From the IMG/VR virus record IMGVR_UViG_3300033145_002422: DNA of 64,000 nucleotides; one strand, given 5' to 3'. The position numbers were made by a program, and so were the translations under genes. The notes beneath the pieces were generated by a model, which was not told the DNA's origin, made no database searches, and saw nothing but the letters and a program-made list of their open reading frames with translations. Each line of letters opens with the position of its first letter. Within the stretch, counting starts at the first letter, position 1. The DNA comes from a virus (Duplodnaviria; Caudoviricetes). Of the stretch, positions 16,547 to 59,789 are shown in pieces.

Positions 16547-16934
16547 ATGAACTGGTATAAATTAGCACAAGAAGGTGTAAAAACTCCTAAAGAAATGGAT
16601 ATGTCTTATTATGATATAGGGCATTGCAACCCCTTTTGAAGTATGCGTAAACAAAAAGCATAAAGTAAAAGATGCTATAGTTTATTTATGGTGGTGGGAA
16701 AATAGAGAATTAAAAATAGAGAAAATAGATAAAAATAGTGAAAAAACTCATATGGACATACTAGGAGATGATATATTAAAATTTTACCAAGGAAGATCGC
16801 AAATTTTGCCGGATAAAAAAATAGTTAGTATTGCTGTTCCAGATGGACAAATATATAGACCTATTCCAGAAGAAATTATAGAAGCTTTACAAAGAGAGTT
16901 CGGATATGATATTCAAATGGTGAGGTTCGATTAA
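16547..16934 (+). pseudogene. MNWYK-family paralog split by a +1 frameshift at CCC-TTT-TGA (16631-16639)
   Basis: MNWYKLAQ...YYDIGH in one frame; LWWW...GR...IP...EFG continues in +1 frame, colinear with 20275..20640. Confidence 0.75.
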
Positions 16935-17683
16935 TGAATTGGTATAAAACAGCTAAAAGATCAACAGGAGATGCTTTTGCTAAAGATAAATTGGATGTTA
17001 TTTTCAGAAAAATAATAGAACTTGACAAATCTATATATATTAAAAAAGAAATTGAGAAAGAAGAAATAGAAATCAAACCAGAAAGAATATATATAGACAG
17101 TTTTTATTTAACTAATAATATGCAATTTGGAATAAAAGAAATTTTTGTTAATATTGTTGCTATAAAATCTATTAATGAAATAGGAATTGGAGGAAAAACA
17201 AGTTTAACCAATGACGCACATATTAGTAATAAATTATTTAATAAATATATTAATGCTTTTGAAATAGATTTAAATATTTATATTCCATACAATTTTGATT
17301 ATAAACAATATAATAGACTTTATTATGAATTATCTAATGTATTAAGACATGAAGTAGAACATGCAATTGCTGGAACAGAAAAATTATTAAAAAATATGGT
17401 AATAAATAATATAGATCCATTAAAAAATACTTATAACTATTTAACGACTATTCCAGAAATAGAAGCATTTGTAACTAGTTTTTACATGAGAGCTAAAAAA
17501 GAAAAAAGAAATATTAAAGAATTATTTGAACAATATATCTATGATCTATTAAATTCAAATAATAAGGATAAAAGATATACCAATACAACAATACGCATAA
17601 TGGCAAATAAAATATTAACAATATGGATAGATTATGCTAAAAAACGTTTTCCAAATTTGGAGAAGAAATATGAATTGGTATAA
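16934..17683 (+). CDS. MNWYK-tagged zincin-like (HExxH) protein
   Basis: LRHEVEHA...EIEAF. Confidence 0.7.
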   Translation: MNWYKTAKRSTGDAFAKDKLDVIFRKIIELDKSIYIKKEIEKEEIEIKPERIYIDSFYLTNNMQFGIKEIFVNIVAIKSINEIGIGGKTSLTNDAHISNKLFNKYINAFEIDLNIYIPYNFDYKQYNRLYYELSNVLRHEVEHAIAGTEKLLKNMVINNIDPLKNTYNYLTTIPEIEAFVTSFYMRAKKEKRNIKELFEQYIYDLLNSNNKDKRYTNTTIRIMANKILTIWIDYAKKRFPNLEKKYELV

Positions 17684-18356
17684 AATAAATAAATTTTCAA
17701 ACAGCCCCTATGGATATTGGATTCCGACAAGCGGAGAACTTATTCCTGTTGGTTTTCAACAACATGGATCAAAACTTGTAACATTAGGAATAAAAAAAGG
17801 ATATGATGAAGCTTTCGGAAAAAGATGGATAAGAATAATTATTGGTGAAGGCGATGGAATGAGTATAGAAATAAAGTCAAAAAAACCTAATGGAGATCAA
17901 ATATATAGCATACTCAGATTATATAATGAGTTATTTGCAGATTCATTTCAAAGACCAATTATTTTTATAGATTATTTTGGTAAACAATTAAATACTAATA
18001 GCTATGAAGGTCTTCAATTTGCTCTTGAAAATGGACTACAACCTAGAGTATTATTTTCTCAAAACAATTATTTAGACTATTTTCATAATGGACACAATAA
18101 AGGGGAATATCTATGGTTTATAGATAAAGATCAAATATTCCATAAAAAATCAACAAAAAATAATATAGAGCATGAAGAATGGGAAGAGTTTAATATGCTT
18201 GATACTATCGCCTCTGGAAGATTCGGATTTAATGATGGAAAAGTACTTGCAACAATGGTTCTATATGGAAGCCAATTAAAACAAATTTACTATAGAAAAA
18301 TTGCAAAAAGTATATTAAATAGAGAATTAAACTATCCGATTATTAAGGAATTCTAA
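17670..18356 (+). CDS. MNWYK-tagged two-domain protein
   Basis: YGYWIP.SGE domain (as in 20894) + LWF...H...GRF domain (as in 18360/20275). Confidence 0.75.
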   Translation: MNWYKINKFSNSPYGYWIPTSGELIPVGFQQHGSKLVTLGIKKGYDEAFGKRWIRIIIGEGDGMSIEIKSKKPNGDQIYSILRLYNELFADSFQRPIIFIDYFGKQLNTNSYEGLQFALENGLQPRVLFSQNNYLDYFHNGHNKGEYLWFIDKDQIFHKKSTKNNIEHEEWEEFNMLDTIASGRFGFNDGKVLATMVLYGSQLKQIYYRKIAKSILNRELNYPIIKEF

Positions 18357-18359
18357 AAC

Positions 18360-18770
18360 ATGAATTGGTATAAAATAGCACAAAAAATAATAGAATACGA
18401 TAAACATAGACTACCCTATGTAAGTTTAGGACACGATCAATATAGAAATAGATATAGATATAAAGATGAAGAAAATCAAATTCCTAACTCAGAATTACCA
18501 GAAGAATATATATGGGTTATTAATAATGGAATATTATATAAAGAAGATGGTTTTGAAGCTCATTGGAATAATAGAAATGAAAAATTTATTGAAAAACTAC
18601 GTACAGCACAATGGAAAGGTAGATTTCAAAATAAAAACGAAAAAAAGATTTTAAGTGTAGTTAGTTTAATGGGAACTAGCTCTAATTATAGACCTATACC
18701 AAATGTTATATTAAATATTCTTTATGATGAATTTGGAAAAGATGTAGATATCTATAGATTTGGTCAATAA
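18360..18770 (+). CDS. MNWYK-family protein
   Basis: MNWYKIAQ; GH...W...GRF...IP...EFG. Confidence 0.8.
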   Translation: MNWYKIAQKIIEYDKHRLPYVSLGHDQYRNRYRYKDEENQIPNSELPEEYIWVINNGILYKEDGFEAHWNNRNEKFIEKLRTAQWKGRFQNKNEKKILSVVSLMGTSSNYRPIPNVILNILYDEFGKDVDIYRFGQ

Positions 18771-18808
18771 AAAATCCGCCAAAAAATATCTTATAATTGT
18801 TTTTTAGC

Positions 18809-20240: not shown

Positions 20241-20274
20241 AGGATTTTTATTTAATTTAAACAATTAAATATAT

Positions 20275-20640
20275 ATGAACTGGTATAAACTAGCACAACA
20301 TAAAATCTATGATAGAAATGATTTTGATATGACTTATTATGATATAGGTCATAATAAAGATGAGACTGTTATTGTTGGTAAAGAATATAGATCTAAAGAT
20401 ACTACAGATAAATTATGGTGGTGGGATGGGTATATTCAAACTGAATTTATAGGAAAAAAACATTATGAAATGGGAGTAGAAAAAAATAATTACCATGGAA
20501 GATATGAACAAAACCTTAAAGGAAAATTTGTGAGCATTGTATCACCAGAAAGAAGAAATTTTCATAATATTCCATCTTTTATTGTTAATGGTTTAATAGA
20601 TACTTTCGGTAGTGATATTATTATTGTGAGATTTGATTAA
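20275..20640 (+). CDS. MNWYK-family protein
   Basis: MNWYKLAQ...YYDIGH...LWWW...GRY...IP...FG. Confidence 0.8.
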   Translation: MNWYKLAQHKIYDRNDFDMTYYDIGHNKDETVIVGKEYRSKDTTDKLWWWDGYIQTEFIGKKHYEMGVEKNNYHGRYEQNLKGKFVSIVSPERRNFHNIPSFIVNGLIDTFGSDIIIVRFD

Positions 20641-20641
20641 T

Positions 20642-20893
20642 ATGAACTGGTATAAACTAGCACAACATTTATCTATTATGGAGGAATTAAATATCTCTGC
20701 CCCTAAAAAATACTATTTCTTCGATACGAATCATGGAAAAATATTTTCTAAAGAAGATTCAATTGATGGGGTATCTGAACAAATGATGACTGAAGACGAA
20801 GTTAAACATATTAATGCAACATATTCAATAGGACAATGGATGACCACAAAACAAATCATTGAATGGCTTAAAGATCATAAAGAGAAACTATAA
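20642..20893 (+). CDS. MNWYK-tagged hypothetical protein
   Basis: first 9 codons essentially identical to those of 20275 but unrelated body. Confidence 0.75.
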   Translation: MNWYKLAQHLSIMEELNISAPKKYYFFDTNHGKIFSKEDSIDGVSEQMMTEDEVKHINATYSIGQWMTTKQIIEWLKDHKEKL

Positions 20894-21277
20894 TTGAGTT
20901 GGTATAAAATGATAAAAACTTCAAGTATTTATGGCTATTGGATTTCTCCAAGCGGAGAAGAATTCAGGATAAATGATATGATGAGACATAAGGAAACTGC
21001 TGAAAATATGGGATTTAAAGATTTAGATGAAATATTTAAAGCAGGATATGCTAGAGTAGTTTTACATAAAGGGTTAGAAATACAAACATATAACCCTGGA
21101 CAATTAACTTCTGCTCAAAAATCTACTATTAGTAGTATATATCTTGACAAAAGAAGAATAGAACCATTACTAATTATTGTTGGTGGTTTTGATTCTGATG
21201 CAGATAATTATATTGAAAGCAGAAACTTAAATCAAATTTTTCAATTTATGGATTCAGGTTCTAATAATCCGTTGTAA
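20894..21277 (+). CDS. MSWYK-tagged protein
   Basis: TTG start; YGYWISPSGE domain. Confidence 0.7.
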   Translation: MSWYKMIKTSSIYGYWISPSGEEFRINDMMRHKETAENMGFKDLDEIFKAGYARVVLHKGLEIQTYNPGQLTSAQKSTISSIYLDKRRIEPLLIIVGGFDSDADNYIESRNLNQIFQFMDSGSNNPL

Positions 21278-22556: not shown

Positions 22557-22596
22557 TGTTAAAAGGATTTTATTATATTTTTTATAATATAAATTG

Positions 22597-22926
22597 ATGA
22601 ATTGGTATGGGTTTTTAAAAACTTCTACAAAAACATACTTTGATACTGGTTTTATTGGGAATAATACTATAGAAAATAAAGATATTTATCTTTGGATATG
22701 GGTAAAAGGAAGGCTTGTTACAACTCCGGTTAAAAATAAAGAAGATACTCATGGTATTTTTTCTTTTATAGATACATTAGATAATATATACAGAGGAAGA
22801 TTCCAAGATAATATTGTAACTATTATTAAACCTGTAGGAATCGCTTCTTTTTTGAAAATTCCCAATATATTGCTTAATTTATTATATGAGGAGTTTGGGG
22901 ATAATATAAAAATTATAGAAGAATAA
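22597..22926 (+). CDS. MNWY-family protein
   Basis: MNWYGFLK...LWIW...H...GRF...IP...EFG. Confidence 0.75.
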   Translation: MNWYGFLKTSTKTYFDTGFIGNNTIENKDIYLWIWVKGRLVTTPVKNKEDTHGIFSFIDTLDNIYRGRFQDNIVTIIKPVGIASFLKIPNILLNLLYEEFGDNIKIIEE

Positions 22927-25653: not shown

Positions 25654-26268
25654 TTAAATTATTTTTAAAGTATTTGGTAATATCTCTGAAATATGATGTT
25701 CTGATTGATACCATCCTCTAGGCATATCAGAAATAAATTTATATATATAATGGTCAAAAGATAATTTCCATTTATCTTTCATTTTCTGTGAAAGTTTATG
25801 TAATTCTTTTCTTGGTATTCCTATAGAAAATTCTGTATATTCTTCTGCTTCTTTTTTTATTTCTTCCCATTCTTCTTTATCAGGAGTTATCGCTCCCCAA
25901 TGTAATAATTTATCATCATTTGATATAGCCCAAGGGTCTATATTAAATTTTTCAAGAGATATAAATTTTTTTGTAAATTTAATAGCATATTTATCGAATC
26001 CAAGATTTTCAAGATCTTCGTTACTTATTTTAAATGGTGAGTTTTTTTTATCTTCTGTAATTGATAATAAATCTTCAGAATAAAAATTACATACAGCTAT
26101 TAAATCAATATCTTTAATAATAAAATTAGGTTTGTTTTTATTTTTTACATATGAACCCCAAGCTAATACCGATTTTACTCCATTTATAGATAATATAGCA
26201 GATGCCATTTTATTTATATTTGGTTTTACATTCTTTATTTTAGGCATTGATTTTTTATACCATGACAT
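25654..26268 (-). CDS. MSWYK-tagged Pol-beta-type nucleotidyltransferase
   Basis: VLAWGSY...KDIDLIAV (GS...DxD). Confidence 0.7.
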   Translation of the reverse strand: MSWYKKSMPKIKNVKPNINKMASAILSINGVKSVLAWGSYVKNKNKPNFIIKDIDLIAVCNFYSEDLLSITEDKKNSPFKISNEDLENLGFDKYAIKFTKKFISLEKFNIDPWAISNDDKLLHWGAITPDKEEWEEIKKEAEEYTEFSIGIPRKELHKLSQKMKDKWKLSFDHYIYKFISDMPRGWYQSEHHISEILPNTLKII

Positions 26269-26379: not shown

Positions 26380-27978
26380 ATGAAAGGTTCTATAAATACT
26401 AAGGTAAATCGAGGCCGTGGAGGTACGTATTGGTTAGCTGTTACTACAGATTCTCAGGATATTCAAATTGTAAATAAATTTAATCAATTAATGTCATCTT
26501 TGGGTTATAGAGCTTTTCCACCAAAATCAAAGAAGCCATCATGGACAAAACAGGTTATACCCACAAATATTGATAATATAGAAGGAGAAATAAGTAGAGT
26601 AGCTGCCGATGTTAGTATGATTCCAAATTTTACAGGTCTTGAACTTATAAAAACAGATTTTGCTTCTTTTGAACAAAAGCAGCCAGAGGTTTCTCAACCA
26701 ATAATTACTCCAGAAGGGCAGCAAGTAGAACAAAGCGAAGCTACAGATACAATAGAAAGTTTTGTTGATAAGCTTAGAAAGGAAATGGCAATTACACCTG
26801 CTGATGAGCAAGCAAAAGCTATGGCAGATATGATTGCTAATCAATTAGAAACACTAGCAACTTCTGTTGATGAAGCTAAAAAGCAAGGATTTATAAAAGA
26901 TTTCCTTAGTTTTGCTTCTAAATTCTGGAATTATAGTATGTCAAATCAAATGCTTATTTATTTTCAAACAAAAGGAAAGTCAGAATTTGTCAAAGGAAGA
27001 AAGCAGTGGGGAACAATGGGAAGAAAATTAAAAGCAGATGCTACTCCAATAAGTATTTTAGCTCCTTCGGCAGCAGGAACTAATGTAGATGATAAAGGCT
27101 TAGCTATGGTTCTTTCATATGTAGAATATTATTTAAGATCTTTTCCAAGAGAAATTGATTTGACTAAAGGAAATAATATAAGAAAATTTTTAGGTTTTGC
27201 TAAGAAAAGAATAGCTGGTAGAAGATATTTTTATCTTCTTAACTTATTTAATAATAAGAGATTTAAAAATGTTTCTGATATAGGAATATATTTAAATAAT
27301 AAAGCAAAGGCTGGAAAAGGAGATTCATCATTTTCGTTTTCTAAGTTTAAGGCTGTTCAGGTTTTTGATTATAATGATACGGAACCACTTCCAGGATATA
27401 CTGGAAAGATTTTTACTCCACCTACAAAAGATATGTGGCAAAGTAAATATAACACAGAGGATGATAAATCAACAGCTATTATTAATGCTGCTTTAAAAAT
27501 AGTCGCTAGTAAGGGGATAGAGTTTAAAGAAGAGGATACTGGTCGTTCTGGCGGATATGCAAAAGGTGGAAAAACTATAGCAGTCCACTATCAGTCTAAA
27601 GGTCAAAGAAAATTATCAACTATTATACATGAAATAGCTCATAGTTTATTACATTTTGGAGACGATATAAGAGAGTCTAATATATTAGAAAAAGAAATAG
27701 ATGCAGAATCTGTTACTTATATTGTAATGAAACATTTTGGATTTGAAGCAGATTACGCTCCAAATTATTTAGCTTTATCTGGAGCAACTTCTAAAGAGGT
27801 AAAAGGAAGAAGAGATACAATTGCTAGAGCTGTTAAGATTATATTAACAGAACTTCATAAATATTTATTAGGTAATGGAGAAAATACTGCATCATATAAA
27901 GGTTGGTATAAAACAGCAAAGAAAATGGTTTATTCATTTGAAAATACATTTATTCCAGTGATATATATTAATTTTTAA
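26380..27978 (+). CDS. ArdC-like ssDNA-binding + zincin metallopeptidase (polyvalent-type) protein
   Basis: SKFWNYSMSNQMLIYFQ (ArdC-N) and STIIHEIAHSLLH...EIDAESVTYIVMKHFG. Confidence 0.8.
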   Translation: MKGSINTKVNRGRGGTYWLAVTTDSQDIQIVNKFNQLMSSLGYRAFPPKSKKPSWTKQVIPTNIDNIEGEISRVAADVSMIPNFTGLELIKTDFASFEQKQPEVSQPIITPEGQQVEQSEATDTIESFVDKLRKEMAITPADEQAKAMADMIANQLETLATSVDEAKKQGFIKDFLSFASKFWNYSMSNQMLIYFQTKGKSEFVKGRKQWGTMGRKLKADATPISILAPSAAGTNVDDKGLAMVLSYVEYYLRSFPREIDLTKGNNIRKFLGFAKKRIAGRRYFYLLNLFNNKRFKNVSDIGIYLNNKAKAGKGDSSFSFSKFKAVQVFDYNDTEPLPGYTGKIFTPPTKDMWQSKYNTEDDKSTAIINAALKIVASKGIEFKEEDTGRSGGYAKGGKTIAVHYQSKGQRKLSTIIHEIAHSLLHFGDDIRESNILEKEIDAESVTYIVMKHFGFEADYAPNYLALSGATSKEVKGRRDTIARAVKIILTELHKYLLGNGENTASYKGWYKTAKKMVYSFENTFIPVIYINF

Positions 27979-38400: not shown

Positions 38401-39832
38401 GAGATTGGCTATTAGCGGTGGAAAATGTTTAATTATTACACTTCCTGCGGCTATGCTTCAATGGGAAAATTCAATTAAAAATCTTAAGGGAGATAATGAA
38501 TTGATATCTTATGATGTTACAAATGGTTCTAAATGGACAATATTATCATATAATAATTTAACTAATGCATCTAAGGCCGATCCGAATAACCCAAAAATAA
38601 GAAAAAGGGATATATTAATAGATAATATAAAGAAGGTTGGTGGATTTACAACATTAATTATTGATGAATGTCATATGGTAAAAAATAATGCCATACAGAC
38701 AAGAAATATAATGGCAGTGGCAGAAGGTATACCTTATGTTTGGGGATTGAGTGCAACAATTATTGCCAATAAACCTATTGATGCTTACAGGCAATTAAAA
38801 GTTATAGGTCATAGATTGGGGCAATTACCATTAAAGATATTTAAAGAACATTTTGGTGGATTTGTTAGAATTAAGGGGAAAACTAGAAGAGGTAAATTAG
38901 AGAAGGGCGATGAATCTCAGATACTTAAAGCTGCATCTCAGTTAAGAAAATGGCTTACTCTTTCAGGAGTATATATTAAGAGAAGTAAGAGAGATATTAA
39001 TCCAGATCTTCCAAATCATATTATTCAAGATAATGAGGTAAATGTAGATACAAAGGCTTTATTCGCAGATATCGCCAAGAGGATGCAAAATTATACCAAT
39101 CCGGCATTAGTCGTTTCTCAGATGCAAGCCCAAAGAACAGAACTTGCTAAAATAAAAGTTTCTTTTAGTTTGGATCTAGCTAAAAGCGTTTTAATGCAAG
39201 GTAAAAAAGTAATAGTATTTACATGCTTTAAAGATTCTGCGGAAATGCTAATGAGTGGTTTACAAAAGATTATAAATGATGAGGTAGAAGAGGGTGGGGT
39301 AGTTCTTGGTTATTTAGGTGGAGTTCCGCAGGCAACCAGAGATAGTTATAAGGCATTAATGCAAGACCAAAAAAGTCCGGCGAAAGCTATGGTTATAAGT
39401 ATACTGGCTGGTGGAACTGGATTGGATTTGCCAAATGTTGTTGATGATGTTATTATAAATGATTTTAGTTGGACTCCAAAAGATGCTGAACAATCAGAAG
39501 GTAGGGCATTTAGAATTACAAGTGAAAATGATGTTACCACGACTTATGTTGTTGCAGCGAATAGTCCAGATCAAGAATTTTATGACTATGTACAAATTAA
39601 GAAAAATTTATCTCAAATGATTGGGAATCTTACAAGCCTTGAATCTCAGCTTGTTATGCAGGGTAAAAAACCAGTTGATGTCCAAAAGCAAATAGAAGAG
39701 TTGCAGAAGAAAGATCAGAGTTTAGATGTTGGTATATTAGATTATGTTAAAAAGTTTATGGGAAGTTTAACAGGAGTTGGTAATAAATTATCTAGTGACA
39801 AGTTTAATATGAAGCAATATAAAATTAGTTAA
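35441..39832 (+). CDS. SNF2/SF2 helicase with LAGLIDADG intein
   Basis: LWPLQKEGV, GDSTGSGK|T Walker A, IIDECH, LSAT, GTGLDL, QSEGRAFR. Confidence 0.9.
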   Translation: MINIFSLLKESQAQQIYIQGQPVDDLIGTVHTMYGRGAPTVYDDSGFNKNDYVNPVFQNIAGMVSGDRIPVQNSIKALYLLAKYQNRQLPNYNTLKLNIQTLINQVTNVTVDTSIPTNKIIAMGNNQWGLIFKINNLTKQRTINKAVKEELLRQGRSPDESWRYFRADSSQGLDIYQISPSVISIVATILQNEGYDVTDMIQKPQDQSQQALKRFDATLLSDGGVEIGFDYNADLVKFVKKARRRRFNGKERRTWTIYEDKKFFEELEKYLSSNGYDTSKLKDIINGKAIAAPAEVRQEKKGEVLYYDIYDLTNGMFHISIVPTGGLLSKDISEFLRFSFPYWVGRKKFKEAQDPNNTELKDAAIRTVNLNPSYVSIDSRTGKKLWGHEIRGLFSDYFAIEGIISKFGYDTKGFRDIVMSLYKRGVVQKDAIPGVLDGFRKKDPTGERAFANDDEAFYKTIDNNYKLRQKDGTEKELWPLQKEGVAFLYSRKSAILGDSTGSGKCQSKDTLVNSNLGVFEIQELWNKYGNIENIYFIDNEDEEIIYPKEEIFVNSIDDNGKVVKGKVNFLYREKYRGKLRKIKTSNGKEITVSFPHKFLTHCGWSNNLKVGDIVCSSSRQPHLSNSYSNISSELAEFLAWQIAEGHETKYGISITQSDIKVLDKLKDIFDNFDFRVSYNKDRKIKSSIIKPNNRTSYLSISSISYKKYLESIGYQWGRKSKDKEIPDCVMMAKDDIVKIFLKSFFDAEGYCSKKSRRIGITSASKKLIFQLSILLQRFNILCTFRTMMKCATNGTKIKRPYYELNIIGSGVHKFMDEIGFGYAYKNDNFNNIKSETNFNKEGKPVHIVLSKFFDNYDLPLKLLNIPSKNFVIGARGWNSDTINKTIKSFDSLVVGDTKEEYGKLRRSKWTDKTTAVLERIDNKLVQEIVKDLSIMANNDLQYEKIISIEIIEYDDYIYDLNIEKYHNYIAENLICHNTYESLVAADMRLAISGGKCLIITLPAAMLQWENSIKNLKGDNELISYDVTNGSKWTILSYNNLTNASKADPNNPKIRKRDILIDNIKKVGGFTTLIIDECHMVKNNAIQTRNIMAVAEGIPYVWGLSATIIANKPIDAYRQLKVIGHRLGQLPLKIFKEHFGGFVRIKGKTRRGKLEKGDESQILKAASQLRKWLTLSGVYIKRSKRDINPDLPNHIIQDNEVNVDTKALFADIAKRMQNYTNPALVVSQMQAQRTELAKIKVSFSLDLAKSVLMQGKKVIVFTCFKDSAEMLMSGLQKIINDEVEEGGVVLGYLGGVPQATRDSYKALMQDQKSPAKAMVISILAGGTGLDLPNVVDDVIINDFSWTPKDAEQSEGRAFRITSENDVTTTYVVAANSPDQEFYDYVQIKKNLSQMIGNLTSLESQLVMQGKKPVDVQKQIEELQKKDQSLDVGILDYVKKFMGSLTGVGNKLSSDKFNMKQYKIS
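36953..38371 (+). mobile_element. intein (473 aa) with LAGLIDADG endonuclease in helicase Walker A
   Basis: K|CQSKDT...ENLICHN|T; FLAWQIAEG and FFDAEG blocks. Confidence 0.92.
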
Positions 39833-40668
39833 AGTTGTCCAAGTTCTTTTGCGTATTGAAGCATAGATTTTTGATTTGTATTCATTCTTGGTTTAATGCC
39901 TCTTAATCCTTTCTTAAGACTATTGTATTGTGGATGATTGATATATGCTTTTGCAGCAGCGGCCCAATTTCCGGAGTTTATTAAATCAGTAATTTTTTTA
40001 CGATTTCCTTTTGGAAAAAGATCGCCCCTATAGACCGCATTAACTAATGCTATTTGAACATATTGTGGATATGAACCAAAGTTTGGTAATGAATCTTTTG
40101 CTCTATTAATATGCTTGTCTAAATCATATTCATAAAATAATTTATACATTTGATCTTCCGTTAGTTTTTTCTTTTTATCGATTATGTCATTGTATTCTTG
40201 ATTGGATATTCCTAAAACTTTATTAAATATAGAACGTGACTCAGGGATTATAAGATGCCCTATTCCTATGGTCGGTTTTCCAATTCCATCATTATATACT
40301 CTCAAACTTTTTCCTTCGTATGGTATTAAATTTTCAGCAAATGGTTTATAATTTTGAGAAATATTTGTTTTTTCTACAGGTATTTCTTCTTTAGCACCTG
40401 GAATCTCTTTTATTTTATTTTCGGCATATGGAAGGCTTCTTTGTACAAGTGGTATTTTTTTTTCAGAAATCATTGTTTGAAGCTGTTGTTTGATGACTAC
40501 GGGGTTATTATTGTGTTTTTCTGCAATTTTATTTGCTTCTTGTGGAGAAATTCCGAGGTATACTAGCATAGGAATTAATGGGATCATAATTGGAAGAAGG
40601 AATTTTCCCCAATCCCATGAATATTTGTATAGGTAACATTCGTATTGACTTTGTTTGTACCAGTTCAT
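39829..40668 (-). CDS. MNWYK-tagged GH24 (T4-like) lysozyme with N-terminal hydrophobic segment
   Basis: YEGKSLRVYNDGIGKPTIGIGHLI (E-8-D-5-T triad). Confidence 0.85.
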   Translation of the reverse strand: MNWYKQSQYECYLYKYSWDWGKFLLPIMIPLIPMLVYLGISPQEANKIAEKHNNNPVVIKQQLQTMISEKKIPLVQRSLPYAENKIKEIPGAKEEIPVEKTNISQNYKPFAENLIPYEGKSLRVYNDGIGKPTIGIGHLIIPESRSIFNKVLGISNQEYNDIIDKKKKLTEDQMYKLFYEYDLDKHINRAKDSLPNFGSYPQYVQIALVNAVYRGDLFPKGNRKKITDLINSGNWAAAAKAYINHPQYNSLKKGLRGIKPRMNTNQKSMLQYAKELGQL

Positions 40669-44223: not shown

Positions 44224-44280
44224 TATTATATAGTCCTAATACAGGTAGTTTGAACAATTTTATACCTCTGGAGATATAAT

Positions 44281-49300: not shown

Positions 49301-50045
49301 TGGATGCTGTGCTGGCGAATTGGATTGGAAGAAAAGAGTAAAGTTGCAAGCTACGATACAAAAACATATTGATCATTCTATTTCATCTACTGTAAATCTA
49401 CCTAAAGAAGCTACGGTAGAAGATGTTGCTAAAATATATGAGGAAGCATGGAAGCTTGGATGTAAGGGCATAACTATTTATAGAGAAGGAAGTAGAGCCG
49501 GTGTTTTGGTAGATGAAAACGAATCAGAAATTATTGTAAAAACTTCTGCTCTTAAAAGACCCAAAAAACTCCCATGCGACGTTCACCATCTTACTATAAA
49601 GGGAAATCAGTATTTTGTTTTGGTTGGATTATTAAATGGAGAACCATATGAAGTTTTTGCGGATAAAAATGGAGTAGTTTCAAGAAGTATTAAAAAAGGA
49701 GAAATTATTAAAGTAAAAAGAGGGCAATATAAAGCTATTTTTGATAATGAATTTGAGCTTGATAATTTAACTGAGCATTTAGACGATATGGAAGATACCA
49801 TAACTAGACTTGTTTCTTCTAATCTCAGGCATGGAACCGATATAAAATTTTTGGTTCAACAGCTTGAAAAGTCTAAAGGCGATGTTTTGTCGTTTGAAAA
49901 GGCTATTGCAAGGGCTTTGAAAAAATATATTAAAGATGGGACTATTGTTACTGGAGAGGTTTGTGAATCCTGTAAAGGGACTAATCTTGCTAGACAAAAC
50001 GGGTGTGTTACTTGTATGGATTGTGGTTGGAGTAAATGTTCATGA
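46389..50045 (+). CDS. nrdJ: class II (B12-dependent) ribonucleotide reductase with intein
   Basis: LSNCYV, TNPCGEIPL, APSGSVS, KGITIYR, C-terminal Zn-ribbon GCVTCMDCGWSKC; no nrdB in window. Confidence 0.9.
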   Translation: MIQKIYSYEEVYNSTLEYFNGDELATKVFINKYALRNKEQELLEKSPDDMHWRIANEIARIEKDKFKNPMNAEDIFEYLKGFKRLIPQGSPMNGIGNRFQYTSLSNCYVIEPPVDSYGGIHLSDEQLTQISKRRGGTGLDISNLRPDGTPTSNAAKTSTGIIPFMERFSNSIREVGQCLYSSSMILLSRGLTRIDRVNIGDSVWTENGWANVEKVVKNKKDTIKIKTKRGFEIICSRNHFLHTSEGEKKAIDFSHGDSITAIAGQEWYGEEINLVVGYKKSNYNNSNRLNENVKEPHVLTAELAYLIGYSYGDGYVGKHRHNKSNCSLELACSNQYPEIIKKLQSIFKNEYNLDVKESDRSNRGDMVSLRVSSRMLLNHLEQNNILKEHAGCLKLPECLFKAKSEVVFGFIAGYFDADGTAIESKKVYRFASIDNQFLKDIQKILLAYGIVSTIYIQDRSNMGWHNISALSINGRRNQEKFSELCNQSVKVNHARWVPKVRDFTRTIYNTSDYTTRASRHGYIIDDRQKISYSTSERLCSDLQIRDSYCLIEDQIESVDEFELNSDVYDLCLDHTHFFSANGIYVHNSGRRGALMISISIHHPEVSEFAKIKRDKKKVTGANISVRLSDEFLKAVEENKEYEQRWPVDSKEPVVSKMVNAREIWMQFIESAWDCAEPGLLFWDSIIRESPADCYPGFQTVGTNPCGEIPLSALDSCRLLVINIFNYVKNAFTNKAEFDYDALRKDAIIAQRFMDDIIDLELEAIGKIINKIKRDPEEDRIKRVELEMWQNIKKACQNGRRTGVGTTAVGDTIAALGFKYGSTRSIEVVDEIYRTIKLGCYRSSVDMAKELGAFPVWDFELEKNNPYLLRIKDDDQELWDDNKKYGRRNISNTTLAPSGSVSLLSRTTNGTEPVFKLSYKRRRKINPDEQNTRVDFVDASGDQWEEFIVYHPKVKNWMKITGETDIEKSPWFGCCAGELDWKKRVKLQATIQKHIDHSISSTVNLPKEATVEDVAKIYEEAWKLGCKGITIYREGSRAGVLVDENESEIIVKTSALKRPKKLPCDVHHLTIKGNQYFVLVGLLNGEPYEVFADKNGVVSRSIKKGEIIKVKRGQYKAIFDNEFELDNLTEHLDDMEDTITRLVSSNLRHGTDIKFLVQQLEKSKGDVLSFEKAIARALKKYIKDGTIVTGEVCESCKGTNLARQNGCVTCMDCGWSKCS
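46920..48149 (+). mobile_element. intein (410 aa) with LAGLIDADG endonuclease in RNR
   Basis: VGQ|CLYSSS...ANGIYVHN|SGRRGA; LIGYSYGDG and IAGYFDADG. Confidence 0.93.
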
Positions 50046-56076: not shown

Positions 56077-56113
56077 TGTTTAATGTATATAATATTAATG
56101 TAAAACTTATAAT

Positions 56114-56141
56114 TAAAGGTATTTTTTGAAATAATCGATAA
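56114..56141 (+). promoter_or_regulatory. sigma-28-like promoter upstream of terminase
   Basis: TAAA-N16-ATCGATAA vs FliA/WhiG consensus TAAA-N15/16-GCCGATAA. Confidence 0.55.
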
Positions 56142-56150
56142 TATTATACT

Positions 56151-58025
56151 ATGCCAAGAAAAGAATGGAAATCAATTTCAGATATGATAAGTCAAGCCGC
56201 TACTGTTATTGATGTGTCTGAGATCACCAGTGAAAAGTTTATTCCTGATATTATTACTTTTTGTGAGCATCCAGATTATTTAGATATGAAATCTAGTAAT
56301 ATAGAATTATATCCTATGCAAAGAATAATGTTGAAGGTTTTTTATAGGGGTTCTGTAGGCAACGAGCTTGTTACTTTAACAGAAGAAGAGATGGAATTGT
56401 GTAGGGTATTGAATCTTGACAATCCTGATAATGGAGATGTATTAGGAAAATATAAAAGTATTGAAAGGTTTAGAGAATTAGTTTTAGTGTGGGGTCGTCG
56501 TAGCGGAAAAGATTTTATTTCCTCAGTTGTCGCCCTATATGAGGCTATGAAACTATTAGAATGTCAGAGTGGAGATCCATATATTACATATAATATAGGT
56601 TCTGCTAATCCAATAACTATTTTGACTATTGCGACTGCTAAAGATCAAGCTGATATAGCTTTTCAGGAAGTAAAGGATAAATTATTAAGAAGTAGATATT
56701 TCAAAGATAAAATAGGACAAGATGCGATACAATCTCAGTCTATTTGTTTACTTACTCCAAAAGATAGGAAAGATAATAAAGAATATAAGGAAAGAAGATT
56801 ACCTCTTAAAAAAGGATCTATTGTTATTGAGGTTGGTCACAGTAATTCAGATTCATTGTTAGGTAAAAGTATTTTTGTTTTAATATTAGATGAAGTAGCA
56901 GCATACAAAAATACAGGTGGGTCTTCTGGTGGAGATAGGATATATACAGCTTTAACTCCTTCTTTGAATACATTCGTTAGAAATGAGAAATATATCGATA
57001 CCGATGGAAAAACGGTAGTTAGAAAAGTATATGATAGTAAAATAGTAAGTATTTCTTCTCCAAGAGGCCAGGATGGGATATTCTATAATTTGTTTAGAGA
57101 AAGCGACAATGTTCCTAGTAGATTAGGATGTAGATTACCAACGTGGTCAGTTAATCCAAATCAGGAAGAAGAATATTTAAGACAGACAAATTCTCATATG
57201 ACAGAAGAAATGTTTCAAATGGAATTTGGAGCAGAATTTTCAGGAACTGCTAGTGAAAATTTCTTTCCACGAGAAGTTGTTGAAATGTGTTTTACTCATT
57301 CATTAAAATTAAGAGATATAGGAGAACCTGGAAAAGTTTATTTTGCTCATTTAGATCCAGCTACAACGAGTCATAATTATGCTCTTGTTATTGTACATAA
57401 AGAGTTTTTTATTCATCCAGAAACTAAAAAAGCAGATTATATTATTATTGTTGACCATGTAAAATATTGGCAACCAGATATAGGAAAGCCAGTTAATGAA
57501 GAAGAAGTTGATGAATACGTTATTGGTTTACGAAGAAGGTTTCATCTAGGATTGGTAACATATGATCAATGGAATAGCAGTAAGAGTATATTAAAACTTA
57601 GAAAACATGGAATGCCAGCTAAAAAGACAGCATTTAGTAAAAGATATAAAAATATTATATATGATGAATTATATAGATTAGCAGTTGGGGAAAGGCTGAA
57701 AATACCTTACCATAATTTTTTGAAGGGGGAGATGATGAATTTGCAGAGAAAATATACTCCGAATGGATATAGAGTTTATCCGAAAAGAGATGGTGAGTAT
57801 ACTACTGATGATATTGTAGACTGCGTTGCTGGAGCTTGTTACGATTCTATTTCTGCTGAAATTACAAGACTTCCTGTAGGAAGATTAGTTAACACAGGTT
57901 ATTCTCCGAGTAGTGGTGATGTTGCTTGGAGAAGTATGCAGGGAACCTTATATGGCGTTGGTTCTGGAGAAAGGGTTTCAAAGGAATTGGAAAAAAGAGC
58001 TTCATGGCCTGGATATAAAAGATAA
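56151..58025 (+). CDS. terL: terminase large subunit
   Basis: WGRRSGKD Walker A, LILDEVA Walker B, SISSPRG, AHLDPA and DDIVD nuclease residues. Confidence 0.9.
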   Translation: MPRKEWKSISDMISQAATVIDVSEITSEKFIPDIITFCEHPDYLDMKSSNIELYPMQRIMLKVFYRGSVGNELVTLTEEEMELCRVLNLDNPDNGDVLGKYKSIERFRELVLVWGRRSGKDFISSVVALYEAMKLLECQSGDPYITYNIGSANPITILTIATAKDQADIAFQEVKDKLLRSRYFKDKIGQDAIQSQSICLLTPKDRKDNKEYKERRLPLKKGSIVIEVGHSNSDSLLGKSIFVLILDEVAAYKNTGGSSGGDRIYTALTPSLNTFVRNEKYIDTDGKTVVRKVYDSKIVSISSPRGQDGIFYNLFRESDNVPSRLGCRLPTWSVNPNQEEEYLRQTNSHMTEEMFQMEFGAEFSGTASENFFPREVVEMCFTHSLKLRDIGEPGKVYFAHLDPATTSHNYALVIVHKEFFIHPETKKADYIIIVDHVKYWQPDIGKPVNEEEVDEYVIGLRRRFHLGLVTYDQWNSSKSILKLRKHGMPAKKTAFSKRYKNIIYDELYRLAVGERLKIPYHNFLKGEMMNLQRKYTPNGYRVYPKRDGEYTTDDIVDCVAGACYDSISAEITRLPVGRLVNTGYSPSSGDVAWRSMQGTLYGVGSGERVSKELEKRASWPGYKR

Positions 58026-58095
58026 ATAATAGAAGGATTTATCTATATTTTATTTAAAATAAAGAATTGAAAGATTATCTATTGGAGAATGAGAA

Positions 58096-59112
58096 ATGTT
58101 TAATTTGAATAAAAATTCCAAGGAACAGAGAAAAATAGCCCAAAACGTTGTTGTAATAACTGAAAAAATGCTTATTGAAAATAATGAAAAACTTGGACTG
58201 GAACCAAATGAGGAAGATGGAAACTATAATAAGCTCTTGGAAAGCGATAGGGAGAACTCTGTTGGAGATAAGAATTATGAAAAATTATTAGCAGATGTTA
58301 GAGTTGAATCATCTGATGATAAATCTATTTTAGAGTCAGTTCTTAATAATACTAAAGATACCATGAATAAGCTCAGAGACGAAGAAACTAATGTTCCTTT
58401 AATGGATTTTGCTAAAAAGAATGTAGTTGAAAAAGAAAAAACATATCAAAAAGCTATAAATGCTAGCGATAGCGATACATCTTTTTGGGATAAGTATGTT
58501 GGTCAGCAATTAGATAAAGATCAAATTACAAAAATAACTAATAATATACAGTCTAGTCAACTAGTTTCTAATTATGATACGAGAGAAAATTTTAATAAAG
58601 AAAACCCATCTATTGGAAAGAAAGTCCCTGTGGCAGTTGATGAGATTTTAAAAGATGCAGATGCCATGTTGTATTTTATATATAGAACGGCGGCAGAAGG
58701 GTCTAGGGAACTTAACGACAAAGAGAAGCAAATAATTACTGATATTAATTCTGGTAAGATTAGAATACTTTCTCAGTTTAAACAAGAACAAAATTTATCT
58801 GAAGAAGAATGGGATGAATTGATGAGAGAAGAAAAAATGCTTATGGAAGCAGATGATACAGAATCTCAGGAAATAGCAGAAGCTAATTTAACAGATACTT
58901 TAAATGACCAAAAAATGGAAGATGGATTGGAATTTGGGGATCAATTTTCCCAGAAACAGGATGATTGGGAAACACAGGAAGAGGCAGATGCTTCGCGTAG
59001 GCTCAATAAAGAACAAGAGATATTGAGAGGGGGCATAGATCCGGTAACGGGAGAGTATGGTCGTCATTCCGATACTCCTTCTTTAGATCAACCATGGTGG
59101 GGAGATAGATAA
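58096..59112 (+). CDS. acidic hypothetical (possible head) protein
   Basis: 338 aa ORF with RBS. Confidence 0.7.
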   Translation: MFNLNKNSKEQRKIAQNVVVITEKMLIENNEKLGLEPNEEDGNYNKLLESDRENSVGDKNYEKLLADVRVESSDDKSILESVLNNTKDTMNKLRDEETNVPLMDFAKKNVVEKEKTYQKAINASDSDTSFWDKYVGQQLDKDQITKITNNIQSSQLVSNYDTRENFNKENPSIGKKVPVAVDEILKDADAMLYFIYRTAAEGSRELNDKEKQIITDINSGKIRILSQFKQEQNLSEEEWDELMREEKMLMEADDTESQEIAEANLTDTLNDQKMEDGLEFGDQFSQKQDDWETQEEADASRRLNKEQEILRGGIDPVTGEYGRHSDTPSLDQPWWGDR

Positions 59113-59330
59113 TGAAAATTATAAAAAAATCAGATATTGGAGAAAGAAGATTTAGAGTAGGTATTTATGTGGATATTTTTGTTCCTGAAACTGATAATTT
59201 AGAAGTAGATAGGATGACCGCATCTATGAAAGCAGAAGAAATCGTAAGGAAAATTCCTAATAATGCGTATTTGGGAGATGTTGCTCATTATACCCCAAGA
59301 CTTGATAAGCCATTAGATAGGGATATATAA
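59112..59330 (+). CDS. hypothetical protein
   Basis: coupled TAATG junction. Confidence 0.65.
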   Translation: MKIIKKSDIGERRFRVGIYVDIFVPETDNLEVDRMTASMKAEEIVRKIPNNAYLGDVAHYTPRLDKPLDRDI

Positions 59331-59333
59331 TTA

Positions 59334-59789
59334 ATGAATTTTTATAAAAGAATGAAATTATCATTTCGTGGAAATATTCCGAGAATGGATGAAATGGATG
59401 ATTTAGACCCATACAAAAAGCACAAGCCTGGTGATGGTAATGGATTAGAAATGAAAACGCCAGGTGACGAAGAAGGCTGGAGTGGACTTGGGACTAGAGT
59501 GAGGGGTAAAGATTTTCCGAAGAATATAATGCAAAAAGATGATTATGATTTACAGAGGGATAAAGACATCCCTACTGTTGATCATGCATTAATGGGAGAA
59601 AATGCTCCGCTTCCAGGTGATACCGGGGTAGATAATGGAGAACTTTATGATAGCGATTCGCCATTGAGCATGGAGAGAACAGTTGCTGATAAATTAGAAG
59701 GTCATTACAGTAATCCTAATGGACCTCATAATATGAATGGTGGTGGAAGATTAGGATTATATAGAAGATTAAGAGAAAGGATTAGATAA
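59334..59789 (+). CDS. MNFYK-tagged hypothetical protein
   Basis: MNFYKRMKLS variant of tag. Confidence 0.7.
   Translation: MNFYKRMKLSFRGNIPRMDEMDDLDPYKKHKPGDGNGLEMKTPGDEEGWSGLGTRVRGKDFPKNIMQKDDYDLQRDKDIPTVDHALMGENAPLPGDTGVDNGELYDSDSPLSMERTVADKLEGHYSNPNGPHNMNGGGRLGLYRRLRERIR

What the first reader, a model, noticed from the sequence alone, without database searches (positions are those of the whole stretch)
16547..59789. Shared N-terminal M-[NS]-W-Y-K tag on at least 10 unrelated proteins: candidate capsid-loading/propeptide code
Seen starts: MNWYKLAQ (16547,20275,20642), MNWYKTAK (16934), MNWYKINK (17670), MNWYKIAQ (18360), MSWYKMIK (20894), MNWYGFLK (22597), MSWYKKS (26268, minus), MNWYKQSQ (40668, minus) and MNFYKRMK (59334), plus GWYKTAK near the C-terminus of the ArdC-like protein. 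The bodies are unrelated (HExxH protein, nucleotidyltransferase, lysozyme, unknown domains). A looser K-x-[AS]-Q also occurs near the N-termini of the helicase (KESQAQ), 58096 (KIAQ) and 62375 (KTSQ). Established: T4 internal proteins share a ~10-aa capsid-targeting sequence removed by the prohead protease. Inference: a portable tag that packages enzymes into the head for co-ejection, cleaved near K-x-A/S.
Basis: partly seen in the sequence, partly recalled or inferred. Interest (0 to 1): 0.8.

Follow-up and report, generated by a model that had tools for sequence, protein, structure and literature searches.

The report
Shared MNWYK head-address tag in phage
Eleven genes of this large uncultivated phage begin with the same eight-residue peptide, which copies a motif that is otherwise packed into the head-assembly proteins of its closest relatives, so it is probably a label for loading enzymes into the phage head, though loading itself is untested.

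Summary
Nine genes start M-[NS]-W-Y-K exactly where stated, and two carry variants (MNWYG, MNFYK). Conservation is at the amino-acid level: synonymous codons vary and upstream DNA is not conserved.

One correction: the bodies are not all unrelated. Five share one small domain ("family A") and two share another. About six or seven unrelated families remain.

The tag is virus-specific. It heads 98 ORFs in 72 sequence families in IMG/VR contigs, and bacterial genomes show only chance matches.

My main result links the tag to the head. In relatives with the same portal and terminase, K-x-A-[Q/S] is enriched 5- to 8-fold in three places:
- a giant protease-scaffold fusion (21 sites against 1.8 expected in one protein);
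- the portal;
- the genes just upstream of the portal.

It is not enriched in the capsid protein or in non-head genes. The strongest internal sites read [F/Y]-N-[L/W]-x-K-x-A-[Q/S], which is the whole tag.

The best reading is therefore a capsid-targeting and cleavage peptide analogous to the T4 CTS, about 55% likely. Packaging and cleavage remain unproven.

This scan had already noted the same tag on other DNA, and no paper describing it was found.

The parts
16547..16934 (+). Family A gene starting MNWYKLAQ. It is broken by one frameshift after YYDIGH, and the rest reads on in the +1 frame to ...QMVRFD.
16934..17683 (+). Tagged (MNWYKTAK) 249-aa HExxH protein from a virus-only family. Homologues at 28-58% identity keep the tag.
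17670..18356 (+). Tagged (MNWYKINK) two-domain protein. The family B domain (YGYWI-x-SGE) is followed by a family A domain from residue 109, and a degenerate internal tag (TNSYEGLQFAL) sits at the junction.
18360..18770 (+). Tagged (MNWYKIAQ) family A protein, 136 aa.
20275..20640 (+). Tagged (MNWYKLAQ) family A protein, 121 aa. In the AlphaFold model residues 1-10 are flexible (mean pLDDT 55) and residues 11-121 form a confident domain.
20642..20893 (+). Tagged (MNWYKLAQ) 83-aa protein with no detectable relatives among the tagged set.
20894..21277 (+). Tagged (TTG start, read as M-SWYKMIK) family B protein, 127 aa. A public gene call starts at the internal ATG six codons later, but SWYK directly after the upstream stop is very unlikely by chance.
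22597..22926 (+). Family A protein with the variant tag MNWYGFLK.
25654..26268 (-). Tagged (MSWYKKSM) nucleotidyltransferase-like protein with weak NTP_transf_2 similarity. A second, canonical motif (P-N-I-N-K-M-A-S) lies at residues 17-24.
39829..40668 (-). Tagged (MNWYKQSQ) lysozyme. The tag is followed by a hydrophobic segment at about residues 22-40 and then a Phage_lysozyme domain (residues 117-248).
27898..27921 (+). Internal tag-like G-W-Y-K-T-A-K-K, 24 residues before the C-terminus of the ArdC-N plus M78-like protein (26380-27978).
58096..59112 (+). Acidic 338-aa protein just after the terminase gene. Its N-terminus MFNLNK is conserved in the closest relative and fits the head-motif form F-N-L-x-K. 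K-I-A-Q lies at residues 13-16.
59334..59789 (+). Doubtful member starting MNFYKRMK. It lies in the head-gene block, and no detectable homologue carrying the motif was found in the closest relative.

Best explanation
The tag M-N-W-Y-K-x-[A/S/I]-[Q/K] is a free-standing N-terminal copy of the head-maturation motif of this clade of huge phages, [F/Y/M]-N-[W/L]-x-K-x-A-[Q/S].

In the clade, a capsid-maturation protease of the T4 gp21 / herpesvirus assemblin fold is fused to a roughly 1,900-residue scaffold. That scaffold, the portal and a block of proteins encoded upstream of the portal are studded with K-x-A-[Q/S].

Most likely, tagged proteins are recruited into the assembling prohead, possibly by being held as substrates on the protease-scaffold core. 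The tag is then clipped and the enzymes travel in the head to be ejected with the DNA. By analogy with assemblin, the cut would fall after the alanine, K-x-A|Q.

Shown here:
- the tag is selected at the amino-acid level;
- it is portable across many unrelated families;
- it is specific to viral contigs;
- it matches a motif concentrated in the head-assembly proteins of relatives.

Inferred only: the cleavage, the scissile bond, the binding partner, the packaging and the ejection.
For: 1. Amino-acid-level selection. Synonymous variation occurs at every degenerate site and there is no upstream conservation. The tag stays identical in homologues whose bodies are 28% identical. Information content drops to background after residue 8.

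2. Portability. In the window plus IMG/VR loci, 98 tagged ORFs fall into 72 BLAST families, 56 of them singletons.

3. Virus-specific and clade-linked.
- The strict DNA pattern gave 37 viral stretches. In 596 Gb of bacterial and archaeal genomes it gave only 11, of which only two phage-like tandem arrays look real.
- Complete 460-548-kb phages carry 3-10 copies against 0 for the reversed control.
- 15 of 27 further records with the same portal type carry it, 34 matches against 0 for the control.

4. Head link within one relative, L040.
- K-x-A-[QS] counts are 21 against 1.8 expected in the protease-scaffold (P about 1e-15), 5 against 0.2 in a 199-aa protein and 4 against 0.5 in the portal. The capsid protein, a weakly decoration-like 191-aa protein and a 137-aa protein have none.
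- The capsid protein and the protease are identified by PHROG matches (E 7e-62 and 5e-13).
- The protease domain's best fold matches are T4 gp21, then herpesvirus proteases.

5. Head link across the clade. Enrichment is 7.6x in the protease-scaffold, 4.9x in the portal and 4.6-6.8x in genes up to 10 kb upstream of the portal. It is 0-1.3x in the other head proteins and 1.7x in the window's non-head genes. K.AQ is the top-ranked x.yz motif among 1,219 miscellaneous proteins of these loci.

6. Match to the whole tag.
- The protein next to the portal has a conserved core bracketed by F-N-L-x-K-x-A-Q and P-F-N-W-x-K-x-A-[SQ].
- The protease-scaffold starts M-x-x-x-K-x-A, with that K invariant, and carries a conserved K-x-A-S at about residue 31.
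- The portal has a conserved [KR]-x-[AS]-Q-[YF]-x-G near residue 40 in almost all 45 orthologues, 33 of them in the strict K-x-A-[QS] form.

7. The tag is exposed. In the family A model it is flexible (pLDDT 55) on a confident domain (pLDDT 86-94).

8. It also works away from the N-terminus. It occurs internally at domain junctions of fused proteins, without a Met in one case (L037 residue 456, L016 residue 638). That suits an endoprotease or docking site rather than recognition of the N-terminus itself.

9. Cargo types. They resemble injected counter-defence enzymes: ART-PolyVal, Tad6, GNATs, HicA, nucleotidyltransferases, and ArdC-N in the window.

10. Precedents. T4 CTS peptides of 10-20 residues are removed by gp21, and the SPN3US ejection protein gp47 has a transmembrane segment just after its propeptide (PMC5694885). 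Herpesvirus assemblin is an N-terminal protease fused to the scaffold and cuts after Ala: pseudorabies virus YLQA-T and VQA-S (PMC4498786).
Against: - There is no experimental datum. No cultured relative exists (best GenBank terminase match 28% identity), so there are no virion proteomes.
- The head module of the window's own phage lies beyond the window and could not be fetched. The head evidence comes from relatives whose terminase is 55% identical.
- Some cargo is odd for capsid delivery: a full-length glucose-6-phosphate dehydrogenase (L002), and membrane-anchored proteins including the window's lysozyme, which could simply be a signal-anchored endolysin.
- Half of the window's tags lack A-Q at positions 7-8 (AK, NK, IK, SM, SQ, and LK in the MNWYG variant), although each has a K-x-[AS] at residues 5-7 or 8-10.
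- Tagged bodies show no depletion of internal sites, 9 against 7.1 expected.
- Some records of the portal clade have no exact tag.
- The motif is conserved at the very C-terminus of some portal-adjacent proteins, where only 4-5 residues follow it. That looks more like docking than useful cleavage.
Confidence: 0.55

Rival explanations
1. The tag is a docking peptide for some other common partner that has nothing to do with the capsid, for example a phage chaperone, a timed-degradation system or an intracellular compartment. On this view the likeness to the head motif arises because that partner also handles head proteins.
For:
- The cargo includes a metabolic enzyme (G6PD) and membrane proteins.
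- Tagged genes sit in accessory clusters beside HNH endonuclease genes, the kind of place where early genes lie.
- One tagged gene and the ribonucleotide reductase gene share a similar promoter-like sequence.
Against: - The motif is concentrated 5- to 8-fold in the protease-scaffold, the portal and portal-adjacent proteins, and not in other proteins of the same phages.
- No candidate reader emerged.
- A degron would not be expected at conserved internal positions of structural proteins.
Confidence: 0.2
2. The tag is only a cleavable propeptide, a protease site that activates or releases enzymes. It has no targeting role, and entry to the head, if it happens, depends on other features.
For: - The second half of the tag equals the enriched K-x-A-[Q/S] motif.
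- The motif also separates domains in fused proteins.
- Several cargoes could be toxic to the producing cell (HicA, ART, lysozyme).
Against: - Seven residues are unlikely to keep unrelated enzymes inactive.
- Residues N2, W3 and Y4 are conserved more strictly than the K-x-A-Q part, and they persist when K-x-A shifts three residues downstream, as in MNWYKxIKxALP. This points to a function beyond the scissile site.
- Capsid proteases act inside proheads, so substrates must get there first.
Confidence: 0.12
3. The shared start has no current function. It is a relic of common descent, or a by-product of cassette shuffling through recombination at a conserved 5' sequence.
For: - Tagged genes lie in tandem arrays that include paralogues, a frameshifted copy and repeated '...RFD-stop-MNWYK' junctions.
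- Five of the eleven window genes share one domain.
Against: - 56 of the 72 families are singletons with no body similarity.
- The tag stays invariant while bodies fall to 28% identity.
- Synonymous sites vary, so it is the peptide that is maintained.
Confidence: 0.07
4. The conserved element acts in the mRNA, as a translational operator or initiation enhancer overlapping the start codon in the way the T4 RegA targets do. The peptide would then be incidental.
For: - All tag residues except Ala have one or two codons, so the RNA is nearly fixed.
- AAC is used in 55% of position-2 Asn codons against 20% in the gene bodies, and GCA in 68% of position-7 Ala codons against 32%.
Against: - Every synonymous alternative occurs.
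- Ser at position 2 is coded by AGT, AGC and TCA.
- The motif works internally, in frame and without a start codon.
- The same peptide motif recurs inside head proteins.
- No upstream sequence is conserved.
Confidence: 0.04

Closest known systems
Capsid-targeting sequence (CTS) of phage T4 internal proteins IPI-III, Alt and gp24 (Mullaney and Black 1996, as cited in PMC5694885)
   Same: - A short (10-20 aa) N-terminal peptide shared by unrelated proteins.
- It ends in the consensus site of the phage's own prohead protease, a site that also riddles the scaffold and core proteins.
- The cargo includes an ADP-ribosyltransferase and anti-restriction proteins.
- From my own knowledge, the genes sit in a fast-changing accessory locus.
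   Different: - There is no sequence likeness: from my own knowledge T4 uses MKTYQEFIAE-type peptides cut after L/I-x-E, whereas here the peptide is MNWYKxAQ with K-x-A-[Q/S].
- This tag is shorter (8 aa).
- The protease is fused to a giant scaffold.
- There are far more cargo families (at least 72).
- The motif also occurs internally and at C-termini.
- Nothing has been shown experimentally.
Propeptides of phiKZ / 201phi2-1 / SPN3US head and ejection proteins (PMC5694885)
   Same: - These are giant phages that load many ejection proteins.
- A protease motif (A/S/G-x-E) is found in the portal, in ejection proteins and in the protease itself.
- The portal N-terminus is trimmed.
- One ejection protein has a transmembrane segment right after its propeptide.
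   Different: - Those propeptides are mostly longer than 100 residues and are not a common short tag.
- The motif is different.
- They are different phage lineages, and those findings were validated by mass spectrometry.
Herpesvirus assemblin-scaffold polyprotein (pUL26) and its R and M sites (PMC4498786)
   Same: - An N-terminal protease of the same fold class is fused to the scaffold.
- Its sites have Ala before the cut and Ser/Thr after it (YLQA-T, VQA-S), which resembles K-x-A-[S/Q/G].
   Different: - It is a eukaryotic virus.
- It has only two or three sites per polyprotein.
- The site is not used as a portable tag on other enzymes.
- Cleavage after Ala in the phage is only an inference.
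Encapsulin cargo-loading peptides
   Same: A short terminal peptide on diverse enzymes directs them into an HK97-fold shell.
   Different: These peptides are usually C-terminal, bind the shell protein directly and are not cleaved, and they operate in bacterial nanocompartments rather than virions. (This entry rests on my own knowledge and was not tested here.)
Polyvalent proteins of phages and conjugative elements (Iyer, Burroughs, Anand, de Souza and Aravind 2017; recalled from my own knowledge)
   Same: The domain repertoire overlaps: ART-PolyVal and ArdC-N are seen here, and an LPD23-like zincin is a weak lead. The proposed logic is the same, delivering counter-defence enzymes with the DNA.
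   Different: There, many domains are fused into one giant protein that often carries a MuF head-anchoring domain. Here, each enzyme is a separate gene with its own 8-residue tag. A few fused forms with internal tags also exist.

Membership tests
T4-type capsid-targeting sequence (functional class) | A short N-terminal peptide shared by otherwise unrelated proteins | tested here: met
   An 8-residue tag heads 98 ORFs in 72 BLAST families. Information content falls to background after residue 8.
T4-type capsid-targeting sequence (functional class) | The peptide contains the motif that also marks scaffold, core and portal proteins processed by the phage's prohead protease | tested here: met
   This holds at the sequence level and in relatives only. 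K-x-A-[QS] is enriched 5- to 8-fold in the protease-scaffold, the portal and portal-adjacent proteins, and the extended form [FY]-N-[LW]-x-K-x-A-[QS] equals the tag. Whether this motif is actually a cleavage site was not tested.
T4-type capsid-targeting sequence (functional class) | Tagged proteins are present inside virions | not testable with these tools
   There is no cultured relative, and no sequencing run was listed.
T4-type capsid-targeting sequence (functional class) | The peptide is removed during head maturation | not testable with these tools
   This needs N-terminal proteomics or an in vitro protease assay.
T4-type capsid-targeting sequence (functional class) | The peptide is sufficient to load a foreign protein | not testable with these tools
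   This needs a reporter fusion experiment.
T4 CTS (sequence family) | Sequence likeness to MKTYQEFIAE-type peptides ending in L/I-x-E | tested here: not met
   The tag logo is M-N-W-Y-K-x-A-Q. It has no Glu and no L/I-x-E, so it is an analogue and not a member.
Assemblin / T4 gp21-fold capsid maturation protease fused to a scaffold (relatives' 1,900-aa protein) | Protease fold, conserved catalytic His and Ser, and a gene lying between the portal and the major capsid protein | tested here: met
   - PHROG head maturation protease, E 5e-13.
- Top fold hits are T4 gp21 (probability 0.99, E 7e-3), then herpesvirus proteases. These are weak E-values on a moderate model (pLDDT 71).
- The His-containing motif PVFVNHQNDD has His104 invariant, and GTSMG is nearly invariant with its Ser at 90% or more.
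- The gene order is portal, a 137-aa protein gene, protease-scaffold, a 191-aa protein gene, then MCP.
RNA-level translational operator | Nucleotide conservation beyond what the peptide requires, extending into the untranslated leader | tested here: not met
   All synonymous codons are used and the upstream sequence is not conserved. Only a moderate codon bias is seen, towards AAC at codon 2 and GCA at codon 7.
Polyvalent-protein / MuF-anchored effectors | Effector domains fused in one polypeptide with a MuF-type head-anchoring domain | not tested
   I did not search for a MuF domain. The overlap of domain types was seen.

The most novel reading that the evidence does not exclude
An eight-residue peptide serves as a general address label in a whole clade of uncultivated 250-550-kb phages. 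Any protein that starts with it, or carries it at a domain junction, is captured as a pseudo-substrate by the protease-scaffold core. It is enclosed in the prohead, released by a cut after the alanine and injected with the DNA. If so, the complete set of injected proteins of these phages could be read directly from sequence. That set would include counter-defence enzymes such as Tad6 and ADP-ribosyltransferases, and even metabolic enzymes. The tag could also be used to load foreign proteins.
Probability: 0.35. Interest if true: 0.8.

Novelty: new variant of a known kind. Interest (0 to 1): 0.62.

Why it matters
Which proteins a phage injects with its DNA is usually learned only from virion proteomics of cultured phages. 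These huge phages have never been cultured. A sequence label shared with the head-maturation machinery would allow their injected arsenal to be listed from metagenomes. It would also point to dozens of uncharacterised families as candidate first-strike counter-defence proteins, among them the abundant family A domain found here. And it would give a very short, testable loading tag for an HK97-type capsid. The link between the tag and a protease-scaffold fusion with assemblin-like sites also bears on how phage and herpesvirus capsid maturation are related.

Tried and rejected
- **Whole genome and own head module.** No genome is held. The window's contig is at least 255,885 bp, but look-ups by two of its proteins found nothing on record. 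The head module therefore had to come from relatives.
- **Stop-codon recoding in the 1-16 kb region.** No code opened long frames.
- **Known prohead protease Pfam families in five records.** PF03420 and PF04586 gave no match. A PDB sequence-profile search with the protease alignment gave nothing. The protease was identified only by PHROGs and by fold.
- **Promoter analysis, to ask whether tagged genes are co-regulated with head genes.** The consensus scan was at chance, 102 against 100.5. AGGATTY is at chance overall. An A[AG]GATTT-N-TATAAT-like element precedes two tagged genes, two head-side genes and also the ribonucleotide reductase gene, so it does not discriminate.
- **Family A function.** There were no Pfam or PHROG hits, no usable Atlas hit and only weak gelsolin-like fold matches.
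- **Depletion of internal sites in cargo bodies.** 9 sites against 7.1 expected, which is uninformative.
- **Predicted complex of the protease domain with a family A protein.** It gave no verdict, score 0.00. This is not evidence either way.
- **Sequencing runs.** None was listed, and no RNA holder was listed.
- **Literature.** No relevant paper contains 'MNWYK', and searches on prohead-protease motifs and huge phages found nothing on this tag.
I considered and set aside the idea that the trypsin-like domain of the window's 780-aa protein (53734-56076) reads the tag. No counterpart of it lies upstream of the terminase gene in the closest relative.

Full report
**What the window is.** From about 16.3 kb onward the window is low-GC (26-34%) phage DNA. 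It encodes:
- a large terminase (56151-58025);
- a ribonucleotide reductase and a helicase, each interrupted by an intein;
- a sigma factor, a dUTPase and an ArdC-N/M78-like protein;
- many genes of unknown function.

Its contig is at least 255,885 bp. The closest IMG/VR relatives have a terminase that is 55% identical. Their portal type is shared with complete 460-550-kb phages. No cultured relative exists.

**The observation.** All eleven listed starts are real.
- Seven ORFs begin MNWYK.
- Two begin MSWYK, one of them from a TTG placed directly after the upstream stop.
- One begins MNWYG and one MNFYK.

The DNA upstream of the starts is not alike. Codons vary at synonymous sites: AAC/AAT, TAT/TAC, GCA/GCT, and Ser as TCA or AGT.

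I then looked at 94 non-redundant tagged genes from the window and from IMG/VR.
- Every synonymous codon occurs at N2, Y4, K5, A7 and Q8.
- Only a moderate bias stands out: AAC 55% against 20% in gene bodies, and GCA 68% against 32%.
- The leader shows just a weak purine-rich ribosome-binding signal.

The conservation is therefore in the peptide. Homologues of the HExxH protein show the same thing: at 58%, 44% and 28% body identity they all still start MNWYK.

**Correction on the bodies.** They are not all unrelated.
- A profile search and an alignment place five window genes in one family, family A: 18360, 20275, 22597, the C-terminal half of 17670, and 16547.
- Family A is a roughly 120-residue domain with invariant W, H and G-R and a nearly invariant Y-x-D-I-G-H.
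- 16547 is a family A gene broken by one frameshift.
- 17670 and 20894 share another N-terminal domain.

Still unrelated to each other are family A, family B, the HExxH protein, the 83-aa protein, the nucleotidyltransferase-like protein and the lysozyme. MNFYK at 59334 is doubtful.

**How wide the tag is.**
- The degenerate DNA pattern for MNWYKxAQ found 37 stretches in IMG/VR, often several per contig.
- Scanning those loci for ORFs that begin M[NS]W[YF]K, and adding the window's genes, gave 98 tagged ORFs in 72 BLAST families, 56 of them singletons.
- The logo carries information only at positions 1-8: M, N (S), W, Y, K, x, A>I>S, Q>K. Positions 1-5, and partly 7-8, were fixed by how I searched.
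- Complete huge phages carry 3-10 copies against none for the reversed control.
- 15 of 27 further records with the same portal type carry it, 34 matches against 0.
- In 596 Gb of bacterial and archaeal genomes the strict pattern hit only 11 places. Most of the rest are short out-of-frame ORFs, one lies inside a longer ORF, and only two hits are phage-like tandem arrays on small MAG contigs.
- Cargo domains recognised by Pfam include GNAT acetyltransferases, ART-PolyVal, Tad6, a cyclic-phosphate receiver domain, an AAA_33 kinase, a poly(A)-polymerase-type nucleotidyltransferase, HicA, a methyltransferase and a complete glucose-6-phosphate dehydrogenase.

**The link to the head.** Earlier notes of this scan, made on other genomes, claimed that the second half of the tag recurs in a head protease-scaffold. 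I tested this independently on relatives of this window.

Downstream of the terminase, the relative L039/L040 is syntenic with the window. Its gene order continues as follows:
- a portal (PHROG E 1e-44);
- a 137-aa protein;
- a 1,916-aa protein;
- a 191-aa protein;
- the major capsid protein (PHROG E 7e-62).

The N-terminal domain of the giant protein is a capsid-maturation protease.
- It matches the PHROG 'head maturation protease' at E 5e-13.
- It carries the PVFVNHQNDD motif with an invariant His104 and a nearly invariant GTSMG motif.
- An AlphaFold model (pLDDT 71) has T4 gp21 and then herpesvirus proteases as its best PDB matches, at weak E-values.

Within this one genome, K-x-A-[QS] counts are as follows:
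- 21 in the protease-scaffold against 1.8 expected from shuffles (P about 1e-15);
- 5 in a 199-aa protein against 0.2;
- 4 in the portal against 0.5;
- none in the capsid protein, the 191-aa protein or the 137-aa protein.

Across 54 loci the enrichment is as follows:
- 7.6x in the protease-scaffold;
- 4.9x in the portal;
- 6.8x in genes 0-5 kb upstream of the portal, and 4.6x in genes 5-10 kb upstream;
- 0-1.3x in the other head proteins;
- 0.6-0.7x in downstream and opposite-strand genes;
- 1.7x in the window's own non-head genes (9 against 5.4 expected).

Among 1,219 miscellaneous proteins of these loci, K.AQ is the single most over-represented x.yz motif, and K.AS is second.

**The whole tag recurs, not just its second half.**
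- The protein encoded next to the portal has a variable acidic N-terminal part. A conserved roughly 150-residue core follows, bracketed by [FY]-N-L-x-K-x-A-Q-H-K on one side and P-[FY]-N-W-x-K-x-A-[SQ] on the other. Some orthologues also start x-F-N-[LIF]-x-K-x-[AS]-Q.
- The protease-scaffold itself starts M-x-x-x-K-x-A, with that K invariant in 26 of 26 sequences. It has a conserved [FY]-N-...-K-x-A-S about 30 residues in, and a K-x-A-G just after the protease domain.
- The portal has a conserved [KR]-x-[AS]-Q-[YF]-x-G near residue 40 in almost all 45 distinct orthologues, 33 of them in the strict K-x-A-[QS] form, behind a variable N-terminal stretch.
- The window's own post-terminase protein (58096) starts MFNLNK, as its counterpart in the relative does, and has K-I-A-Q at residues 13-16.

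The tag is thus a terminal copy of an extended motif, hydrophobic-N-[W/L]-x-K-x-A-[Q/S].

**Other properties of the tag.**
- In the confident model of family A (pLDDT 86, pTM 0.81), residues 1-10 are flexible (mean pLDDT 55) and lie outside the fold.
- The motif also occurs inside longer proteins at domain junctions. In L037 it sits at residue 456 as K-N-W-Y-K-I-A-Q with no methionine, directly before a family A domain. L016, L018 and L021 are similar cases. A free N-terminus is therefore not required.
- In one subtype (MNWYKxIKxALP, and the window's KINK, KMIK and GFLK forms) the K-x-[AS] part sits three residues later while N-W-Y stays in place. The two halves are thus separable.
- The nucleotidyltransferase-like protein has a degenerate tag, followed by a canonical N-I-N-K-M-A-S at residues 18-24.

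**Mechanism.** The pattern has three features: a short motif packed into the scaffold, trimmed ends of the portal, and sites flanking conserved cores. This is what is known for the cleavage motifs of prohead proteases.
- In T4 the motif is L/I-x-E and in phiKZ/SPN3US it is A/S/G-x-E. T4 uses a 10-20-residue N-terminal peptide ending in such a site to load internal proteins and Alt (PMC5694885).
- Herpesvirus assemblin belongs to the same fold class, is likewise fused to its scaffold, and cuts after Ala, as in YLQA-T and VQA-S (PMC4498786).

I therefore infer that K-x-A-[Q/S/G] is this clade's maturation site, probably cut after the Ala, and that the tag delivers proteins to that machinery. The simplest route would be capture of the tag, as a substrate, by the protease-scaffold during core assembly, but this is speculation. 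The motif could instead be mainly a docking peptide. Its conservation at the extreme C-terminus of some portal-adjacent proteins hints at that.

**Weak points.**
- All head evidence comes from relatives.
- Nothing is measured.
- G6PD and the membrane-anchored lysozyme are unexpected cargo.
- Half of the window's tags deviate at positions 7-8.
- Promoter analysis, a complex prediction and a search for sequencing runs gave nothing usable.

**Comparison and novelty.** The tag works like a T4 CTS but is not a sequence member of that family. Together with the assemblin-like protease-scaffold it forms a new variant of a known kind of system. No paper describing it was found. This scan has recorded the same tag on at least four other genomes, and again 184 kb further along this same contig.

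Noticed in passing
window 189-14862: The left 15 kb differs from the rest. Its GC is about 40% against 27%, and it holds only small genes: a pentapeptide-repeat protein, DUF6876, an isochorismatase-like protein and others. There are 45 exact CACCTGA copies, all on the + strand, against about 3 expected in the whole window, and many coincide with ORF ends. Another first-stage note (e1-5468472) already flags this. I only re-counted it.
   Followed up: partly
window 53734-56076: A 780-aa protein directly upstream of the terminase gene has no Pfam or PHROG match. Its C-terminal part carries chymotrypsin-fold-like motifs (..GCAHS.., ..GDSGEP..). No counterpart of it lies upstream of the terminase gene in the closest relative.
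   Followed up: no
L077, L061, L071, L080, L066, L076, L090, L079 (protease-scaffold genes; alignment A2, columns about 180-400): In eight relatives an intein-like insertion interrupts the prohead protease immediately after the catalytic-serine motif GTSMG.
   Followed up: no
window 18360-18770, 20275-20640, 22597-22926, 17994-18356, 16547-16934; L020:387-7690: Family A is a roughly 120-residue domain with invariant W, H and G-R and a nearly invariant Y-x-D-I-G-H. It is the commonest tagged cargo, with 24 distinct members in the loci and 11 tandem copies in L020. The AlphaFold model is confident but has no clear structural relative, so its function is unknown.
   Followed up: partly
L002:11652-12971: A complete glucose-6-phosphate dehydrogenase (Pfam E 6e-63 and 8e-46) carries the tag about 12 residues before its NADP-binding GASGDLA motif. 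This is an unexpected cargo for capsid delivery.
   Followed up: no
L040:10001-12235 and portal orthologues (C-terminal about 90 residues): The portal proteins end in a conserved domain with D-x-x-R-D-x-x-L-A-x-x-G-W-x-[VI]-x-R-[FIL]. From memory this resembles DUF559/Vsr-type endonuclease domains. It sits behind a Gly/Met/Pro-rich linker. I did not check it against Pfam.
   Followed up: no
window 5351-5475: A 125-nt match to the tRNA model scores just above the gathering threshold (30.7 bits). It is too long for a plain tRNA, so it may contain an insertion.
   Followed up: no
window 43357-46322, 35441-39832, 46389-50045: Intein-splicing and LAGLIDADG domains interrupt the helicase and the ribonucleotide reductase. 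The AAA+ ATPase gene (45291-46322) begins with an intein C-terminal part, and a NUMOD3 endonuclease gene lies just upstream. Another first-stage note reads this as a split intein.
   Followed up: no
tag codons 2 and 7 in 94 tagged genes (window and L001-L037): Asn2 uses AAC in 55% of tags against 20% in the bodies of the same genes, and Ala7 uses GCA in 68% against 32%. This is a secondary nucleotide-level preference of unknown cause.
   Followed up: partly
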